Below are positions 1,422 to 12,578 of a stretch of 31,137 nt of DNA, piece after piece. Made by a program: the position numbers and the translations under genes. Source of the DNA: a virus (taxonomy: Duplodnaviria > Heunggongvirae > Uroviricota > Caudoviricetes); the IMG/VR virus record IMGVR_UViG_2565956719_000009; one strand, written 5' to 3'. The stretch's first letter is position 1, and every line of letters starts with the position of its first letter. The notes beneath the pieces are model-generated. The model worked only from the letters and a program-made list of their open reading frames with translations. It made no database searches and had not been told where the DNA came from.

Positions 1422-3893
1422 TTAAAAATCAGCCTGATTCGGGATCAGTTTTTGCCAGATAGCTGAAACGTATTTTGCCTGGTAACGGGCATCATCCAGC
1501 GCATTGTGGCGCTCACCTTCGAATGGGATAGCAGTTCTGGCATCGAAGTCTACGGCTTTCCCCAGCTCAACGATTGTGCGTACATCGCGATCGTTGCAGT
1601 AGCGCCACGGGCAGGGGATACCCTGTCGTTCGTATGAACGGCGCAAAATCGTGTTGTCGAAGTTGGCCCCATTACCCCAGACCTGAACAAAAAACTCACC
1701 GGAGTTTTCGTCGATAAATTCCCGCAATTGCAGTAGTGCATCATCTAACGGGATTTCATCGGTCATAATGGCAGACTGCGCTTCACGTGATTGCTTCAGC
1801 CACCATTTAATGACGTCACGATCAATGACTCCGCCAGCAGTATCCAGATCGATGGTCTTGCTAAATTCTGGTCCCATATCTCCGGTTTGCGGATCGAAAA
1901 ATATTGCGCCTATTGAGATAATCGGGGCATCGGGATTTTTTCCCATGGTTTCAAGGTCGATCATCAGATGAATCCCCGCTCTGCTGGTGGATGTGAGATT
2001 ATGATGACTGTTCGCCTTAATTAAGGGATCTGACGCCTCGCCAGTTTCACTATCGCTGGCATGATGCTGATTGCCGCCAGTGTTCTCCTTGTGCTGATGT
2101 GCAGTACCTTCCATTTCCTCCGGATCATTTTCCTGAACTTCAGGCTGATTCTCTTCATCGAATATTTCCTGGTATGTTGCGTCGCCCATCACCGCGCCAC
2201 AATCAGGGCAGTTGCCGCCGCCGGTCTGACCGCAGGCGGTGCAGACTTTTTCCGGTTCCTGTTGCGCCACTGGTTCAGGCTGTTTCGTTTCTGGCTCGTT
2301 TTGTAACGCATTTGGGCTGTTTTGTTCCGCTTTCTGGTCGTTCTGTTCCGTTTCTTGCTGGTTCTGGTTCACAGAATCGCGGGTTTCAATCCCCTTCACC
2401 CATTTCGGATCATTCGGGTCGCTAATCCCTGCAACAAATTCACCACGTGATGCGGCGAGCAACTGATTGGCGTCAGGCTGGCTGATATTGGCTGCCTGCA
2501 TAATTTTCTTTACTTCGTCAGCGGTAACTTTTACCGGTTCTGGTTGTTCAGAATTTTGTGCGGTATTTGCATTTTGCGGTAAGCCTGTGTATGTGCCATT
2601 TTTTCGGGCAAAATATTCTTCTTTTGTGATTTCAGTAGCCCCGGCAGCCAGCGCCTTATCCAGACCAGAAAGTTTGTTTGCGCGACCGTATTTTTCGCAA
2701 TCCTTGTCGGTGAAGAAGAAGTAGAACGGCCCCTCACGCTCTACAGATGGTTCGACTTCCACTTTGCATTCGGTTTTTTCGTTGTCCGGAATTGCCGTTT
2801 CCACTGCATCAGTTTCTGGTACTGGCGACGAGAGAGTGTCAGTTGCGCTCTGATTTGTTCCTTCATCTTCAAACACGCCCTTTGTAGTCAGGTATTCAGT
2901 AATGTATTTGTTCAGTGCCACAGGGTCTTTGTGAATGTCGATCGGACGTTCACGGACAAGGCCAAAAATAGTCTGGCGGTCGTAGCGAAGGGCATCAGGC
3001 TGTTTGCGCATTGATGCCGAGATACGCTTCCAGTCTTCGCGGTCGTTGTCGATAACTTCATTTTTTGCCCAGCGATGGATGCTGCCGTCAATGTTTCCGG
3101 CATCCACATCACCAGGCCAGAGAGCGTAGGCCAGTTCGTCATCCAGTGTTTTCCATGTCTGCTTATATTCGCGACGAATGACTGCAGTGACAGGGGGGAT
3201 TTTTTCTGCTGAGTTTTCAGTGTGCTGTCGGTGGACTCTGGCGCGGGCGAGATCAACAACAGACGTGTATTTTCCGGTTTCCTTGCGTTCACCTTCGCGA
3301 CGTTTTTTCCAGATGCGCATCTCTGCCTGAATTTCGGGCCATTTGGCACCAGGCTTACATTTATGCTTAACCCACCCGATGGCATGCAGCTTAAGCTCCG
3401 GATACATGGCGTTAACTTCTGGCATTTTCATCAACGCTTCAACGATATGTCCGTCGAATGTTGCCATGTCTTCCTGCAACAATTCCTGCGCGCTAATCAC
3501 CATATCAACGGTGATGTTTTCACATGTGTCGAACTTAACCATGACAGCGTTCTGTACTTCAGGGGCCAGCTTGTCAAAAGCGACGTTCATCGGATCTGAT
3601 TCAGTCTCAACCGGGACAAAGGAAGTAGCCCCCTCATCCCAGCGGTTTTCCTGCATATATTCAGCATCCCATGAATCGAGGGCAGGGCGGGGTATACCGG
3701 GTTTATCCTCGCAAACAAGAAATTTATAAGCGCAGTCCTGAGCAGCCGGATAATGCTCCAGGAATTGCCAGTGAAATTTTGCGCGGGCGCGACGTTCATC
3801 ACCGGCTTCAATGGCAGTGGCTACAGCGACTGCACCTTCTTCCTTTATTGCCTGTTCGTCCGGAATGGCGGCGCAAATAAAGACTTTACTCAT
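1422..3893 (-). CDS. RecE-like exonuclease with a DnaQ/DEDDh-type 3'-5' exonuclease C-terminal domain
   Basis: 823 aa; central segment (AASRGEFVAGISDPNDPKWVKG..CTACGQTGGGNCPDCGAVMGD) matches the middle of Rac RecE as recalled; C-terminus (LMIDLETMG..HNALDDA..Y) has DEDDh exonuclease motifs instead of the RecE nuclease fold. Confidence 0.8.
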   Translation of the reverse strand: MSKVFICAAIPDEQAIKEEGAVAVATAIEAGDERRARAKFHWQFLEHYPAAQDCAYKFLVCEDKPGIPRPALDSWDAEYMQENRWDEGATSFVPVETESDPMNVAFDKLAPEVQNAVMVKFDTCENITVDMVISAQELLQEDMATFDGHIVEALMKMPEVNAMYPELKLHAIGWVKHKCKPGAKWPEIQAEMRIWKKRREGERKETGKYTSVVDLARARVHRQHTENSAEKIPPVTAVIRREYKQTWKTLDDELAYALWPGDVDAGNIDGSIHRWAKNEVIDNDREDWKRISASMRKQPDALRYDRQTIFGLVRERPIDIHKDPVALNKYITEYLTTKGVFEDEGTNQSATDTLSSPVPETDAVETAIPDNEKTECKVEVEPSVEREGPFYFFFTDKDCEKYGRANKLSGLDKALAAGATEITKEEYFARKNGTYTGLPQNANTAQNSEQPEPVKVTADEVKKIMQAANISQPDANQLLAASRGEFVAGISDPNDPKWVKGIETRDSVNQNQQETEQNDQKAEQNSPNALQNEPETKQPEPVAQQEPEKVCTACGQTGGGNCPDCGAVMGDATYQEIFDEENQPEVQENDPEEMEGTAHQHKENTGGNQHHASDSETGEASDPLIKANSHHNLTSTSRAGIHLMIDLETMGKNPDAPIISIGAIFFDPQTGDMGPEFSKTIDLDTAGGVIDRDVIKWWLKQSREAQSAIMTDEIPLDDALLQLREFIDENSGEFFVQVWGNGANFDNTILRRSYERQGIPCPWRYCNDRDVRTIVELGKAVDFDARTAIPFEGERHNALDDARYQAKYVSAIWQKLIPNQADF

Positions 3894-4467: not shown

Positions 4468-4855
4468 TGTTTTTGGTTTTAACTGTTCCGCGTGCGCTTA
4501 GCCGCATTCACTGCATCACAAAATTCACTTTAAAAAGGGTGGCAGAGCAGTCACGGAGTAGAACTGATGCCACCAAAGACTACACATGGATATTGTGGCG
4601 GGGCTGTCACTTAAGCGTATGGTCAGCCTGACAACCCGGTGTCCTCAAGGGGAAGGAATAACCCCGCCATACTTACCGCCGCGCCATTTCGCGGATTGCC
4701 ACAACCGGAAGCGCACGGTCGAATTAAATTTAACGACAAAGTACAGAGAGACGAGCTTCTCCGTGTGCTTTCGCGTTATGCTCTGACTTTTCAGAGAAAT
4801 ATCCTTTCAGTAAACTGTCAGTGCCGGATGTTCACCCGTGTCCGTGGATTTGCCC

Positions 4856-7083: not shown

Positions 7084-7120
7084 ATACCCATAGGTATTTA
7101 AAAAGTAAATACCCATGGGT
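7084..7120. promoter_or_regulatory. Left operator cluster (OL-like) with candidate pL
   Basis: ATACCCATAGGTAT (7084-7097) and ACCCATGGGT (7111-7120, perfect palindrome) just downstream of the repressor gene; on the minus strand TTTACC-17 bp-TAAATA overlaps them. Confidence 0.45.
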
Positions 7121-7163
7121 AAATTTTTGCGGTGTCTTAACTGGTGACTAGTTGTTTGGTGAG

Positions 7164-7583
7164 CTATGATGCGTTTTGTGCTTTCTTTTTACGGATTTCT
7201 TCGTAGATCATATTGTAATACTGTTTTTTCTCTTCAAGAGTTTTTAATAATTTATCCGCTTCACTTTCTGGCAGTTCGTCTAAGAGATCTAAAAAAATAC
7301 GTTGTCGTGGCGTTAGAACCCTTGTTTCATAACTGGAGGCTGTGTTCGTTGATGATGAAACGATACCATCCATCCATCCCCGGGGTAACCCAAAGGACTC
7401 TTCGATAATCTCCACCATATCATCAGCGATCCGTTTTTTTCCCTTTTTCCCCTCTGGGTACAACATTCTTGATACATAAGAAGGCTCGCGCCCGATCTTT
7501 CTGGCCACGTTAACCGCTTTACCATCGCATTTCTCATCACGAATTTTGATGAGTTGCTGTCGTCTAAATTCATATTTGTCCAT
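7164..7583 (-). CDS. Prophage repressor, HTH DNA-binding (RacR/CI-like functional position)
   Basis: 139 aa; HTH-like segment KAVNVARKIGREPSYVSRML; divergent from the Cro-like gene; flanked on both sides by the same operator motif. Confidence 0.75.
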   Translation of the reverse strand: MDKYEFRRQQLIKIRDEKCDGKAVNVARKIGREPSYVSRMLYPEGKKGKKRIADDMVEIIEESFGLPRGWMDGIVSSSTNTASSYETRVLTPRQRIFLDLLDELPESEADKLLKTLEEKKQYYNMIYEEIRKKKAQNAS

Positions 7584-7618: not shown

Positions 7619-7661
7619 AACCTGTGGGTATTGACTTTTGTTTACCTGTGGGTATTCTTTG
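7619..7661. promoter_or_regulatory. Right operator cluster (OR-like) with candidate pR
   Basis: Two copies of ACCTGTGGGTAT (7620-7631, 7644-7655) bracket a TTGACT -35 (7631-7636) and TATTCT -10-like hexamer upstream of the Cro-like gene; a further CCATAGGTAAA site overlaps the repressor start. Confidence 0.45.
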
Positions 7662-7683: not shown

Positions 7684-7965
7684 ATGGAAGAATTAAGAAT
7701 ATTTCTCAATTCTCTTTCGTCAGATGAACAGCGTATGTTTGCATGCGAGTGTGGTACCAGCATCGGTTATCTAAGAAAGGCATTGAGTAAAGGTCAAGTG
7801 TTAGGGGCATCGTTATGTGTCCTTATTGAGCGAGCCAGTAATGGTGAAGTTACACGTCAGCAACTAAGGCCTTTTGATTGGATGAATATTTGGCCCGAGC
7901 TGGAAGATACCAAAACGTTAACACAACCACTTTCTAGGAGCTTGATTCATGAAAATCAAGCATGA
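7684..7965 (+). CDS. Cro-like / YdaS-like HTH regulator
   Basis: 93 aa, first gene rightward of the operator region, divergent from the repressor; GAGGAG RBS; synteny with Rac racR-ydaS-ydaT. Confidence 0.65.
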   Translation: MEELRIFLNSLSSDEQRMFACECGTSIGYLRKALSKGQVLGASLCVLIERASNGEVTRQQLRPFDWMNIWPELEDTKTLTQPLSRSLIHENQA

Positions 7966-8374
7966 ACACATCCGCATGGCGATGAATGCCTGGGCGCGTC
8001 CTGATGGCGAAAAAGTTCCAGCAGCTGGAATAACCCAGGCTTATTTTGAGTTGGGTATGACGTTCCCGGAACTGTATGACGACAGCCATCCGGAAGCCCT
8101 GGCTCGCAATACCCAGAAAATTTTCCGCTGGGTAGAGAAAGACACCCCTGATGCTGTTAAAAAAATGCAGGCTCTGTTACCGGCGATCGAAAAGGCGATG
8201 CCGCCTTTGCTGGTGGCCCGTATGCGCAGCCACAGTTCTGAATATTACCGTGAGATCGTCGAACGGAGGGATCGGCTGGTGAAGGATGTCGATGATTTTG
8301 TTGCGTCAGCGGTTGTTTTGTATGACCAGATGAATCGCGGCGGCCCGGCAGGGAATGCTGTGGTGATGCACTAA
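7949..8374 (+). CDS. YdaT-like protein (CII-position regulator)
   Basis: 141 aa beginning MKIKHEHI..., overlapping the Cro-like gene end; positional and N-terminal resemblance to Rac YdaT as recalled. Confidence 0.55.
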   Translation: MKIKHEHIRMAMNAWARPDGEKVPAAGITQAYFELGMTFPELYDDSHPEALARNTQKIFRWVEKDTPDAVKKMQALLPAIEKAMPPLLVARMRSHSSEYYREIVERRDRLVKDVDDFVASAVVLYDQMNRGGPAGNAVVMH

Positions 8375-8381
8375 AAGCACG

Positions 8382-9359
8382 GTGTTCGGGGGTTTTATGA
8401 GCAGCAAGCTTCATGGTCTTGTCTGGGAAGGGTGCGCCTTCACCGGCATGATCTTATCCAGGGTGGCGGTTATGGCCCGTCTTGCAGACTACAGCAATGA
8501 CGAGGGCGTGTCATGGCCTGCCATTGAAACTATCCGGCGTCAGATCGGTGCAAGAAGTGAATCCACAGTGAAATCGGCTATTGCAGAACTGGCGAAAGAG
8601 GGCTGGCTGACGAAGGAAGAGCGTAAGGTCGGTGGGCGTAATGTAAGCAATATCTATCGGCTTAATGTGGAAAAACTCGAAGCAGCTGCGGCGGCGGCGC
8701 GTGAGTCATATAAACCGAAAAGAAAAATTAGCCCGGCAAAAAATGACCCGTTAACAGTTGACCCGTCAAATATTGACCCCTCAACGGTTGACCCGTCAAA
8801 TTTTGATGGATCAACTGTTGATAAAAAACTGCCGATTAGGGGGGCGATGATTGACCCCGATCCGTCAGTATTAAAACCTGATCCGTCAGATAAAAGATCT
8901 TCTTGTCCGGACGCTTCGCAACCGGACCCGCAGACGGCTGAACAGGATTTTTTAACCCGACACCCTGACGCGGTTGTGTTCAGTGCGAAAAAACGCCAGT
9001 GGGGAAGTCAGGAAGATTTGGTGTGCGCACAGTGGATCTGGGGACGAATCGTGAGTCTTTACGAGCAGGCGGCCAGCTATGATGGCGAGATCACTAGACC
9101 GAAAGAACCCAACTGGACAGCATGGGCCAATGACGTTCGCACAATGCGGATGCTGGATGGCAGAACTCACAGACAAATTTGTGAAATGTTTGGGCGTCTC
9201 CAGCGGGATTCGTTCTGGGTAAAAAACATCATGAGTCCGGCAAAACTCCGGGAAAAATGGGATGAACTGGTTATCCGCCTGGGGCGTTCGCCTGCGCAGC
9301 GTTGCGTGAATCACATTTCTGAACCGGACACTGAAATACCGCCGGGATTCAGGGGGTGA
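8382..9359 (+). CDS. Replication initiator, lambda O-like (N-terminal wHTH, origin iterons inside the gene)
   Basis: 325 aa; N-terminal HTH; 15-bp-period DNA iterons at 8740-8830 encode the peptide repeat VDPSN-IDPST-VDPSN-FDGST; followed by a DnaC-like loader. Confidence 0.7.
   Translation: MFGGFMSSKLHGLVWEGCAFTGMILSRVAVMARLADYSNDEGVSWPAIETIRRQIGARSESTVKSAIAELAKEGWLTKEERKVGGRNVSNIYRLNVEKLEAAAAAARESYKPKRKISPAKNDPLTVDPSNIDPSTVDPSNFDGSTVDKKLPIRGAMIDPDPSVLKPDPSDKRSSCPDASQPDPQTAEQDFLTRHPDAVVFSAKKRQWGSQEDLVCAQWIWGRIVSLYEQAASYDGEITRPKEPNWTAWANDVRTMRMLDGRTHRQICEMFGRLQRDSFWVKNIMSPAKLREKWDELVIRLGRSPAQRCVNHISEPDTEIPPGFRG
8740..8830. repeat. Candidate replication origin: TTGACCCGTCAA-type iterons at 15-bp spacing followed by a short A-rich stretch
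   Basis: GTTGACCCGTCAAA (x2), ATTGACCCCTCAAC, TGACCCGTTAACA, TTTGATGGATCAAC in tandem inside the initiator ORF; more GATCCGTCAG repeats at ~8850-8890. Confidence 0.55.
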
Positions 9360-9365
9360 CGTGTC

Positions 9366-10112
9366 ATGAAAAACATTGCGGCAGTTGGGGTTCTTGAACG
9401 TATTCGCAGACTTGCACCACAGGGGTCGGTTCCACCGTACCGGACGGTGGAGGAGTGGCGGGAATGGCAACTTGCTGAAGGACGAAAACGCAGCGAGGAG
9501 ATTAACCGCCAGAATCGCCAGTTGCGGGTGGAAAAAATCCTGAATCGTTCGGGCATCCAGCCTCTGCACAGCAAATGCTCGTTTGCAAATTATCAGGTGC
9601 AGAACGACGGGCAAAAATACGCGCTGAGCCAGGCCAAATCCATAGCTGACGAACTGATGACCGGGTGCACGAATTTTGTGTTCAGCGGTAAAACCGGCAC
9701 CGGGAAAAATCACCTTGCAGCGGCGATGGGCAACCGGCTGATGGTGAAGGGGCGCAGCGTGATTATCGTCACCGTGTCTGACGTCATGAGCGTGTTGCAT
9801 GACAGCTACGACAACGGCAAATCCGGGGAAAAATTTTTACAGGAGCTTTGCGGGGTTGATTTGCTGGTCCTGGATGAAATAGGCGTTCAGCGGGAGACGA
9901 AAAACGAGCAGGTGGTATTGCACCAGATAATTGATCGCCGGACAGCATCACTGTGCAGTGTCGGGATGTTAACAAACCTGAATCATGCCGCAATGAGTAC
10001 GCTTCTTGGTGAGAGGATTATGGACCGCATGACCATGAACGGTGGTCGATGGGTGACGTTTAACTGGGATAGCTGGCGTCCAAATGTCAGCAATATGAGG
10101 GTTGTGAAGTAA
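9366..10112 (+). CDS. DnaC-like helicase loader (IstB-like AAA+ ATPase)
   Basis: 248 aa; Walker A GKTGTGKNHLAAA, Walker B LLVLDEIG; immediately downstream of the initiator. Confidence 0.85.
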   Translation: MKNIAAVGVLERIRRLAPQGSVPPYRTVEEWREWQLAEGRKRSEEINRQNRQLRVEKILNRSGIQPLHSKCSFANYQVQNDGQKYALSQAKSIADELMTGCTNFVFSGKTGTGKNHLAAAMGNRLMVKGRSVIIVTVSDVMSVLHDSYDNGKSGEKFLQELCGVDLLVLDEIGVQRETKNEQVVLHQIIDRRTASLCSVGMLTNLNHAAMSTLLGERIMDRMTMNGGRWVTFNWDSWRPNVSNMRVVK

Positions 10113-12185: not shown

Positions 12186-12422
12186 TTTTATGGATCACCT
12201 TTCTGATTGATTTCATATTGGCGAGGTGACGTGAGTTAAGTAGAATGGCTGCGGGTGCTTGAGGCTATCTGTCTCAGGCATGAACACTGAAAGGCAGATA
12301 GAGAAAAGCCCCAGTTAACATTTCGCGTCCTGCAAGACGCTTAACATTAATCTGAGGCCCAATCTATGTCTCACAAATGTAGGTTAGCCTCTTACGTGCC
12401 GAAAGGCAAGGGGAAGCAGGCT

Positions 12423-12578
12423 ATGAAGCAGCAAAAGGCGATGTTAATCGCCCTGATCGTCATCTGTTTAACCGTCATAGTGACGGCACTGGTAACGAGG
12501 AAAGACCTCTGCGAGGTACGACTCCGAACCGGCCAGACGGAGGTCGCTGTCTTCACAGCTTACGAACCTGAGGAGTAA
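12423..12578 (+). CDS. hokD: Hok/Gef-family type I toxin, HokD/RelF-like
   Basis: MKQQKAMLIALIVICLTVIVTALVTRKDLCEVRLRTGQTEVAVFTAYEPEE: single TM helix plus conserved C-terminus, near-identical to RelF/HokD as recalled; track ORF extends in frame upstream to 12366. Confidence 0.85.
   Translation: MKQQKAMLIALIVICLTVIVTALVTRKDLCEVRLRTGQTEVAVFTAYEPEE

What the first reader, a model, noticed from the sequence alone, without database searches (positions are those of the whole stretch)
8735..8890. Replication origin iterons embedded in the initiator gene and read out as a peptide repeat
At least four 15-bp-period repeats of TTGACCCGTCAA-like sequence lie inside the O-like ORF and translate as VDPSN/IDPST/VDPSN/FDGST, followed by an A-rich stretch and further GATCCGTCAG repeats. 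This mirrors the lambda arrangement in which ori lies within gene O, so the initiator's inter-domain linker is constrained by its own binding sites.
Basis: partly seen in the sequence, partly recalled or inferred. Interest (0 to 1): 0.4.

Follow-up and report, generated by a model that had tools for sequence, protein, structure and literature searches.

The report
Prophage replication origin inside initiator gene
A short DNA repeat array in the middle of a prophage's replication-initiator gene is very probably that phage's replication origin, laid out as in phage lambda; this is an ordinary, well-known arrangement, here in a repeat type I did not find described.

Summary
Six 15-bp units (four strong, core TTGACCCGTCAA) lie at 8743-8829 inside the initiator gene (8397-9359), followed by two GATCCGTCAG sites at 8859 and 8880. 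The window is an E. coli lambdoid prophage beside ompW.

The protein has a winged-helix N-domain, a predicted disordered linker that carries the repeats, and a C-domain 35% identical to lambda O. A DnaC-like loader gene follows.

The repeats are constrained as DNA, not as peptide. In 185 units from 61 relatives, Ser is TCA in 90% against 17% elsewhere in the same genes. Synonymous sites are near-fixed only across 8718-8930 (p = 2e-8). The centre of the palindrome, and so the central amino acid, varies freely.

Other N-domain types carry their own dyad-symmetric repeats at the same place. Copy number ranges from about 1 to about 10 units.

The GATCCGTCAG block persists in one relative with a different N-domain and different repeats and in one with altered repeats, so it looks like a shared origin core rather than initiator-specific iterons.

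Nothing was tested experimentally. This is a new member of a known kind (lambda, P22, phage L). Interest is low to moderate.

The parts
8397..9359 (+). Replication initiator gene (320 aa from ATG 8397; an in-frame GTG lies at 8382)
   Evidence: ORF. RefSeq start in strain CE10. PHROG 391 'replication initiation O-like', E 2e-115, full length. Pfam HTH_36.
8397..8708 (+). N-terminal winged-helix DNA-binding domain (aa 1-104), the presumed iteron reader
   Evidence: AlphaFold2 model, pLDDT 74-89, H-H-H-H-E-E-H topology. Foldseek's best matches are MarR/ArsR/PadR-type winged-helix regulators, all weak (E about 5e-3). Pfam HTH_36 over aa 30-76 of the 325-aa ORF translation that starts at the GTG at 8382.
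8718..8930 (.). Zone of strong synonymous-site constraint, the extent of the embedded DNA element
   Evidence: Fraction of the commonest codon at conserved residues is 0.89 here against 0.60 in the N-domain and 0.63 in the C-domain; Mann-Whitney p = 2e-8. The 62-sequence set gives the same picture.
8743..8829 (.). Iteron array of six 15-bp units. Cores at 8743 (ATGACCCGTTAA, degenerate), 8758, 8773, 8788 (TTGACCCGTCAA / TTGACCCCTCAA), 8803 (TTGATGGATCAA) and 8818 (TTGATAAAAAAC, degenerate). Each is a TGAC-NN-GTCA dyad.
   Evidence: Codon-independent conservation across 185 units from 61 relatives.
8850..8858 (.). Left half of an iteron (ATTGACCCC) abutting distal site 1
   Evidence: Exact 9-mer repeat of 8772-8780 (family D6).
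8859..8868 (.). Distal site 1, GATCCGTCAG (contains a GATC)
   Evidence: The Asp codon is GAT in 62 of 62 relatives and Ser is TCA in 100%. The block is kept in L019 and L021, which have different iterons.
8880..8889 (.). Distal site 2, GATCCGTCAG (contains a GATC), 21 bp after site 1
   Evidence: Spacing in relatives is 24 bp (40), 18 bp (8) or 21 bp (1).
8865..8904 (.). Least stable 40-bp stretch of the gene (67.5% AT), the candidate unwinding region; includes the GATC at 8880 and 8896
   Evidence: Nearest-neighbour stability scan; only 2.4% of all 40-mers in the window are less stable.
8898..8934 (.). Junction with an inverted repeat (GTCCGG..CCGGAC) encoding SSCPDASQPD. Conserved at synonymous sites and shared by several N- and C-domain types.
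   Evidence: Inverted repeat I5. Codons TCT, TGT, CCG, GCT, TCG and GAC are fixed. Present in mEp460 and in loci with other domain types.
8928..9281 (+). C-terminal domain (aa 178-295), homologous to the lambda O C-terminal domain
   Evidence: tblastn to lambda J02459, 35% identity over aa 153-300, E 1e-18. Alignment A1. AlphaFold2 helical domain.
9291..9356 (+). Disordered C-terminal tail ending in IPPGFRG; inferred to contact the loader or helicase
   Evidence: pLDDT below 50. 13 of 19 residues identical to the tail of the otherwise unrelated K-12 Rac YdaU. The mosaic boundary at about 9299 joins it to the loader gene (hits H1-H6).
9366..10112 (+). DnaC/IstB-like helicase loader gene
   Evidence: Pfam IstB_IS21, E 7e-19. 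PHROG 50 'DnaC-like helicase loader', E 8e-82.
7631..7658 (+). Promoter-like site upstream of the cro-like, cII-like, initiator and loader genes; candidate pR equivalent (consensus match only)
   Evidence: Operator-like repeats ACCTGTGGGTATT at 7620 and 7644.

Best explanation
The stretch at about 8718-8930 is the replication origin of this lambdoid prophage, embedded in its own initiator gene.

The initiator has two domains. An N-terminal winged-helix domain is joined by a roughly 65-residue disordered linker to a lambda-O-like C-terminal domain.

Inferred mechanism, by analogy with lambda O and ori-lambda:
- The N-domain binds the dyad-symmetric TGAC-NN-GTCA units of the 15-bp array.
- The resulting nucleoprotein complex destabilises the adjacent, more A/T-rich, GATC-bearing distal block (8859-8904).
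- The C-domain and tail recruit the phage DnaC-like loader, encoded just downstream, together with host DnaB.
- Transcription from the upstream pR-like promoter runs through the site.

Because the DNA is also translated, the array reads out as a pentapeptide repeat. The linker tolerates whatever residues the binding sites dictate.

Shown here: the repeats exist, they are under DNA-level selection, their position corresponds to lambda's iterons, the repeats differ with N-domain type, and copy number varies. Inferred, not shown: binding, unwinding, loader recruitment and origin activity.
For: 1. Gene context is a lambdoid early-right operon: repressor, cro-like (YdaS), cII-like (YdaT), initiator, DnaC-like loader.

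2. The C-domain is homologous to lambda O. In the alignment the repeats lie where lambda's annotated iterons 39034-39118 lie.

3. DNA-level selection in 185 protein-defined 'D.S' units from 61 distinct linkers:
- Ser at position 4 is TCA in 167 of 185, against 17% of Ser codons elsewhere in the same genes.
- Ser at position 1 is TCT in 127 of the 137 position-1 Ser codons, against 9.6% of control Ser codons.
- Asp is GAC in 79% against 44%.
- Third codon positions carry 1.3-1.5 bits, while the central codon, which is the palindrome spacer, carries only 0.45-1.2 bits.

4. Synonymous constraint is confined to aa 108-178: 0.89 against about 0.6 in both folded domains, p = 2e-8.

5. Repeats differ with N-domain type at the same linker position:
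- L022/L030: GGTGnTGCAnnAGATTCACCAGG, 5-7 copies.
- L031: TGTGTCGCCAGAAAGCACAG, 4 copies.
- L036: CCGCAGAATCGCGGAAC.
- L038: CGGCTCTTAAGCCGAA, 4 copies.
- L019: AGCCTGTAC..GTACAGGCT.
- mEp460: GGTCAAAATG.
- L021: TGAACGTTCA.

6. The N-domain, array and distal block travel together when the C-domain is swapped.

7. The linker is predicted disordered, pLDDT below 50 for aa 109-163.

8. Linker length changes in 5-aa steps. Copy number ranges from 1 unit (P0103, P0104; none left in P0106) to about 10, including in-frame deletions between repeats.

9. Isolated phages carry the same design: SfII, SfIV, phiP27, PhiR49_1 and Klebsiella phages.

10. No other repeat cluster exists in the 4.6-kb replication region.

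11. Published precedent: lambda, P22 gene 18 and phage L gene 18 each hold their own iterons inside the initiator gene (PMC8022706; PMC7466680).
Against: - No experiment was done, and I found no paper that maps an origin for this initiator type.
- The A/T-rich tract is weak: 67.5% AT over 40 bp against about 79% in lambda.
- The 15-bp period puts neighbouring sites on roughly opposite helix faces, unlike lambda's spacing of about 20-24 bp. The half-sites are only 6 bp apart centre to centre, which is unusual for a winged-helix dimer, so the true binding register is unknown.
- A relative with only one 15-bp unit sits in a prophage whose called genes still run from integrase to terminase, so the array may not be essential.
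- Part of the low synonymous divergence could reflect recent spread by recombination. However, variable positions inside the block argue against that as the whole explanation.
Confidence: 0.8

Rival explanations
1. The real origin core is the conserved distal block (GATCCGTCAG pair, A/T-rich spacer and junction, 8850-8930). The variable 15-bp array is an accessory element that enhances initiation, sets copy number or confers incompatibility, and is not required for firing. This refines the main explanation rather than contradicting it.
For: - The distal block is nearly invariant from Proteus and Providencia to Enterobacter, whereas the array varies from 1 unit (none in P0106) to about 10 units.
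- A variant with one unit sits in a prophage that retains its integrase, excisionase, cI/cro-type, antiterminator Q, lysis and terminase genes.
- In lambda only the two iterons next to the AT-rich tract are needed in vitro (PMC7466680, citing Dodson 1986 and Wickner & McKenney 1987).
- The block persists with a different N-domain (L019) and with changed iterons (L021).
Against: - The array units are also under strong DNA-level constraint.
- The repeats, not the distal block, are what change with N-domain type, as expected of the specificity determinant.
- Whether the one-unit prophage can replicate is unknown.
Confidence: 0.3
2. The repeats are a functional DNA element but not an origin. They could be initiator or repressor binding sites for autoregulation or a transcription roadblock, or conserved 'linker' sequences that serve as crossover points for module exchange between phages.
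For: - Mosaic boundaries fall at the edges of the element: 8859, 8892 and about 9299.
- The junction motif TCTTGTCCGGACGCTTCGCAACCGGAC occurs with several N- and C-domain types.
- Synonymous constraint proves a DNA-level function but does not say which one.
Against: - The position is equivalent to lambda's experimentally defined iterons.
- Dyad-symmetric multi-copy repeats specific to each initiator N-domain are the signature of initiator binding sites.
- No promoter-like or terminator-like site lies inside the element, and no Rfam family matches there.
- No other candidate origin exists in the replication module.
Confidence: 0.1
3. It is only a low-complexity peptide repeat in a disordered linker, produced by replication slippage. 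The DNA sequence has no function and its resemblance to iterons is coincidental.
For: The linker is predicted disordered. Copy number changes in 5-aa steps, as slippage would produce.
Against: - Codon choice is frozen across 61 lineages against normal usage: TCA 90% against 17%, TCT 93% against 9.6%.
- The amino acid at the centre of each unit varies freely (A, P, T, G).
- Two subfamilies encode different peptides (VDPSN and SDASK) from nearly the same DNA core.
- Each unit is a DNA palindrome, for which a peptide repeat gives no reason.
Confidence: 0.04

Closest known systems
ori-lambda inside gene O of phage lambda (four iterons plus an AT-rich tract; O protein, P loader)
   Same: - The origin lies in the middle of the initiator gene, in the linker between a DNA-binding N-domain and a loader-recruiting C-domain.
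- The repeats are dyad-symmetric and tandem.
- A more A/T-rich segment lies on the 3' side.
- The C-domain is homologous (35% identity).
- The site sits in the pR-type operon after cro/cII-like genes.
   Different: - The N-domain is HTH_36 winged-helix, not Phage_rep_O.
- The units are 10-12 bp dyads at a 15-bp period (6 here, about 1 to about 10 in relatives), not roughly 19-bp iterons at about 20-24 bp.
- The A/T tract is much weaker (67.5% against about 79% AT).
- The loader is DnaC/IstB-like, not lambda P.
- A conserved pair of GATC-containing sites lies 18-24 bp apart.
P22 gene 18 and phage L gene 18 origins (PMC8022706)
   Same: These are the same inference on the same kind of evidence. 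Distantly related O-like initiators each carry their own repeats inside the coding region; phage L has six imprecise copies of an 11-bp sequence, comparable in size and number to this array.
   Different: The repeat sequences and N-domains differ, and the partner is a DnaB-type helicase (gp12) rather than a DnaC-like loader. As here, the phage L origin is predicted and not mapped.
Stx-phage origins with six iterons (P27, 933W; PMC7466680)
   Same: Iteron number varies between related phages, and the extra iterons add residues to the initiator protein (2 iterons give 13 aa). Iterons there were altered without changing the protein, which is the experimental design needed here.
   Different: Those are true lambda O/P modules with lambda-type iterons. 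The phage called P27 in that paper has a lambda-type O protein. The phiP27 record AJ298298 carries an initiator of the family studied here.
Iteron-type origins with methylation-sensitive unwinding regions (P1 oriR, oriC 13-mers)
   Same: Clustered GATC sites next to the initiator binding sites: 39 per kb inside the distal block against 3 per kb in the rest of the gene.
   Different: This is a resemblance only, recalled from general knowledge. No DnaA box is conserved and no methylation dependence has been tested.

Membership tests
Lambdoid-phage origin embedded in the initiator gene (ori-lambda kind) | The initiator gene lies in the early-right operon after the cro/cII analogues and is followed by a helicase-loading gene | tested here: met
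   Order is YdaS-like, YdaT-like, initiator, DnaC-like.
Lambdoid-phage origin embedded in the initiator gene (ori-lambda kind) | Four or more tandem repeats with internal dyad symmetry in the middle of the initiator coding sequence | tested here: met
   Four strong and two degenerate units at 8743-8829, each a TGAC-NN-GTCA dyad.
Lambdoid-phage origin embedded in the initiator gene (ori-lambda kind) | The repeats lie between the DNA-binding N-domain and the C-domain, at the position of lambda's iterons | tested here: met
   Alignment A1 and the lambda annotation. Disordered linker aa 109-163.
Lambdoid-phage origin embedded in the initiator gene (ori-lambda kind) | The repeat sequence is specific to the N-domain type (specificity unit) | tested here: met
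   Each distinct N-domain type examined carries its own repeat family at the same place.
Lambdoid-phage origin embedded in the initiator gene (ori-lambda kind) | A strongly AT-rich unwinding tract adjoins the repeats | tested here: inconclusive
   The least stable 40-mer of the gene lies just 3' of the array but is only 67.5% AT. Lambda's tract is about 79% AT.
Lambdoid-phage origin embedded in the initiator gene (ori-lambda kind) | The initiator binds the repeats and the fragment supports initiator-dependent replication | not testable with these tools
   Needs EMSA or footprinting and a plasmid or phage replication assay.
Lambda O protein family | C-terminal domain homologous to lambda O | tested here: met
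   35% identity over aa 153-300, E 1e-18. Conserved PNW..WAN, DGR.H, FW and SP.KLR.KW motifs.
Lambda O protein family | N-terminal domain of the lambda O type (Pfam Phage_rep_O) | tested here: not met
   Pfam gives HTH_36 and a sub-threshold DnaD_N match, with no Phage_rep_O hit. The tblastn match to lambda begins at aa 153. The protein is therefore 'O-like' (PHROG 391), not a lambda O orthologue.
Lambda O/P replication module | The partner is a lambda P-type loader | tested here: not met
   The downstream gene is IstB/DnaC-like.

The most novel reading that the evidence does not exclude
The distal block (two GATC-containing GATCCGTCAG sites about two helical turns apart, the A/T-rich spacer and the GTCCGG..CCGGAC junction) may be a portable origin core that does not depend on the initiator type. 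It would be shared by phages whose initiators read different iterons, and its firing would be gated by Dam methylation and SeqA. The 15-bp array of alternate-face dyads would then be a tunable specificity and copy-number module that expands and contracts by in-frame recombination. On this reading it is a two-part, methylation-timed phage origin rather than a simple lambda copy.
Probability: 0.2. Interest if true: 0.5.

Novelty: new member of a known kind. Interest (0 to 1): 0.3.

Why it matters
This replication module is common. The identical 1.7-kb initiator-loader segment is present at 99% identity or more in 932 records from 5,426 complete E. coli genomes. Its family includes the Shigella serotype-converting phages SfII and SfIV, the Stx2e phage phiP27 and many Klebsiella prophages.

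Genome annotations call the gene only 'helix-turn-helix domain-containing protein'. Knowing where the origin lies, and which bases are constrained, helps in three ways:
- annotating these prophages;
- designing replication-defective or recoded derivatives;
- explaining the in-frame length polymorphism of the protein.

It is also a clean example of synonymous-site constraint exposing a cis-acting DNA element inside a gene. It does not change how phage replication is understood.

Tried and rejected
- **DnaA boxes.** Only two one-mismatch matches lie near the element (8666 and 8816, minus strand), and relatives show no equivalent. I did not pursue this.
- **Internal promoter or terminator.** None is predicted in 8600-9000.
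- **Known RNA families.** No Rfam match lies in 8300-9400.
- **Solved structures by sequence.** Nothing significant was found. Foldseek gave only weak winged-helix matches.
- **E. coli K-12 Rac YdaU/oriJ as the closest characterised relative.** Rejected. YdaU is a DUF1376 protein unrelated to this initiator except for the 19-aa tail.
- **Literature.** Seven searches found no description of this repeat type. The Eru replication-region paper does not cover it.
- **Direct DNA similarity of the distal block to lambda's AT-rich end.** Suggestive for PhiR49_1 (24 of 30 bases; 3 of 500 shuffles reach the score) but not significant for the window itself (51 of 500). I kept it as a lead only.
- **Cruciform.** The array is one large imperfect palindrome (arms 8753-8785 and 8787-8819) and folds better than shuffles as single-stranded DNA (z = -4.2). 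This follows automatically from tandem dyads, so I do not count it as independent evidence.

Full report
**What the window is.** The 1.7-kb initiator-loader segment is 100% identical to chromosomal prophage DNA in many complete E. coli genomes. It matches at 99% identity or more in 932 records, and 3,306 of 5,426 genomes have some match. In strain CE10 the prophage sits beside ompW and has a standard lambdoid layout. That layout runs integrase, excisionase, exonuclease, dicB, repressor, cro-like, cII-like, 'helix-turn-helix domain-containing protein', 'ATP-binding protein', DUF1627, DUF977, and on to Q, tRNAs and lysis genes.

In window coordinates the replication region reads as follows:
- repressor, 7164-7583 (minus strand);
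- YdaS-like, 7684-7965;
- YdaT-like, 7949-8374;
- initiator, 8397-9359 (PHROG 391 'replication initiation O-like', E 2e-115; Pfam HTH_36);
- DnaC/IstB-like loader, 9366-10112.

**Checking the observation.** The repeats are there and are in frame: NDPLT, VDPSN, IDPST, VDPSN, FDGST, VDKKL. Tandem Repeats Finder gives a 15-bp period over 8723-8821, with a stronger 30-bp super-period. It is the best tandem array in the window.

TTGAYNNRTCAA matches at 8758, 8773, 8788 and 8803, exactly 15 bp apart. In 300 Markov simulations no run longer than one occurred. GATCCGTCAG occurs at 8859 and 8880. The shared motif GAYCCNTCAR is found 8 times against 1.0 expected, with 6 of the 8 in 8760-8889. The 'A-rich stretch' is only about 10 nt.

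**The protein.** tblastn links aa 153-300 to the C-terminal domain of lambda O (35% identity, E 1e-18). The match starts at lambda's annotated iteron 4. In the alignment the repeat-bearing segment lies where lambda's iterons 39034-39118 lie.

AlphaFold2 gives four parts: a winged-helix N-domain (aa 1-104), a disordered linker (aa 109-163, pLDDT below 50), a helical C-domain (aa 178-295) and a disordered tail. Structural neighbours of the N-domain are MarR/ArsR/PadR-type winged-helix regulators, all with weak scores. The N-domain is not the lambda O N-domain, and the loader is not lambda P.

**Is it DNA or peptide that is conserved?** I fetched 79 loci from across Enterobacterales and defined units by protein only, as 'D.S' in the linker. 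In 185 units from 61 distinct linkers:
- Ser at position 4 is TCA in 167 of 185 (90%), against 17% of Ser codons elsewhere in the same genes.
- Ser at position 1 is TCT in 127 of 137, against 9.6%.
- Asp is GAC in 79%, against 44%.
- Third codon positions carry 1.3-1.5 bits. The central codon, which forms the spacer of the TGAC-NN-GTCA dyad, is the least conserved, and its amino acid changes freely (A, P, T, G).

At conserved residues along the gene, the commonest codon accounts for about 0.60 of sequences in the N-domain and 0.63 in the C-domain. Across aa 108-178 (window 8718-8930) the figure is 0.89 (Mann-Whitney p = 2e-8). Variable positions inside the block show that it is constrained and not simply young.

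**Repeats differ with N-domain type.** Relatives with the same C-domain but other N-domains carry other dyad-symmetric repeats at the same place, usually with a 21-24 bp period:
- L022/L030: GGTGnTGCAnnAGATTCACCAGG, 5-7 copies.
- L031: TGTGTCGCCAGAAAGCACAG, 4 copies.
- L036: CCGCAGAATCGCGGAAC.
- L038: CGGCTCTTAAGCCGAA, 4 copies.
- L019: AGCCTGTAC..GTACAGGCT.
- mEp460: GGTCAAAATG.
- L021, a divergent member of this family: TGAACGTTCA at 15 bp.

Conversely, this N-domain with its array is found joined to at least two other C-domain types. Megablast mosaic boundaries fall at 8859, 8892 and about 9299.

The GATCCGTCAG block does not follow the N-domain. L019 has a different N-domain and different repeats, and L021 has changed repeats, yet both keep the block. 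It is almost invariant from Proteus to Enterobacter. The first Asp codon is GAT, giving GATC, in 62 of 62 relatives.

GATC density is 39 per kb inside the block and 3 per kb outside it. The block contains the least stable 40-mer of the gene, at 67.5% AT. I therefore read it as the common origin core, where unwinding and loader entry would occur, and not as extra iterons. The constrained zone ends in a GTCCGG..CCGGAC inverted repeat.

**Copy number.** Linker length in homologues changes in 5-aa steps, from 1 unit (none in P0106) to about 10, with in-frame deletions between repeats. A one-unit variant lies in a prophage whose called genes still run from integrase to terminase. The array may therefore be dispensable, or that prophage may be origin-defective; I cannot tell which.

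**Comparison with what is known.** An origin in the middle of the initiator gene is textbook for lambda, and has been shown experimentally for Stx phages (PMC7466680). The same inference from in-gene repeats has been published for P22 and phage L (PMC8022706). I found no paper describing this particular repeat type. Isolated phages SfII, SfIV, phiP27 and PhiR49_1 and several Klebsiella phages share it.

**Verdict.** It is a new member of a known kind and of modest interest.

Noticed in passing
window 9300-9356; L006 3920-3977: The initiator's disordered tail (..PDTEIPPGFRG) is 13 of 19 residues identical to the tail of K-12 Rac YdaU. YdaU is otherwise unrelated (DUF1376) but is likewise followed by a 248-aa DnaC-like YdaV. 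The tail and loader gene form one mosaic module. mEp460 and PhiR49_1 keep the tail without a DnaC-like neighbour, so it may contact host DnaB or DnaC instead.
   Followed up: partly
window 8901-8927: The junction TCTTGTCCGGACGCTTCGCAACCGGAC (SCPDASQPD) is fixed at synonymous sites. It recurs with several unrelated N-domain types and at least two C-domain types. It could be a crossover 'linker' for module exchange or part of the origin.
   Followed up: partly
window 7620-7656 and 7085-7121: An exact 13-bp repeat, ACCTGTGGGTATT, occurs at 7620 and 7644 between the repressor and the cro-like gene, overlapping the two divergent promoter-like sites. These are likely operators. Related palindromes (TACCCATGGGTA and TACCTATGGGTA) form the terminator-like hairpin downstream of the repressor gene.
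   Followed up: no
window 4537-4588 (-), 12253-12428, 16789-17035, 17114-17304, 17582-17791, 19798-19914 (-): Rfam matches: DicF sRNA, the sok antitoxin (next to hokD), three tRNAs, two copies of sRNA STnc100, and an ALIL pseudoknot. The last is an IS3-type frameshift signal and implies an IS element inside the prophage.
   Followed up: no
L003 1919-1948 against lambda 39141-39170 (L002 724-753): The distal block of PhiR49_1 (AGTAAAATCAAAACATGATCCGTCAGATAA) aligns 24 of 30 bases with the right end of lambda's AT-rich tract (AGAAAAAAGAAAAGATTATTCGTCAGAGAA). Only 3 of 500 shuffles reach that score, but the window's own block is not significant (51 of 500). This may be a distant common origin core.
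   Followed up: partly
L088 11355-12008; L003 2933-3586: Several phages with this origin type (e14/SfIV-like) encode a Dam-family N6-adenine methyltransferase two genes downstream of the initiator. That is notable given the conserved GATC pair in the origin core.
   Followed up: no
window 2280-2366: A second, weaker tandem repeat (21-bp period, about 4 copies, 70% matches) straddles the integrase and excisionase genes at the left end of the prophage.
   Followed up: no
window 8753-8819: The whole iteron array is one imperfect 33-nt-arm palindrome centred at 8786 and could extrude as a cruciform (single-stranded DNA fold z = -4.2). This is probably just a consequence of tandem dyads.
   Followed up: partly
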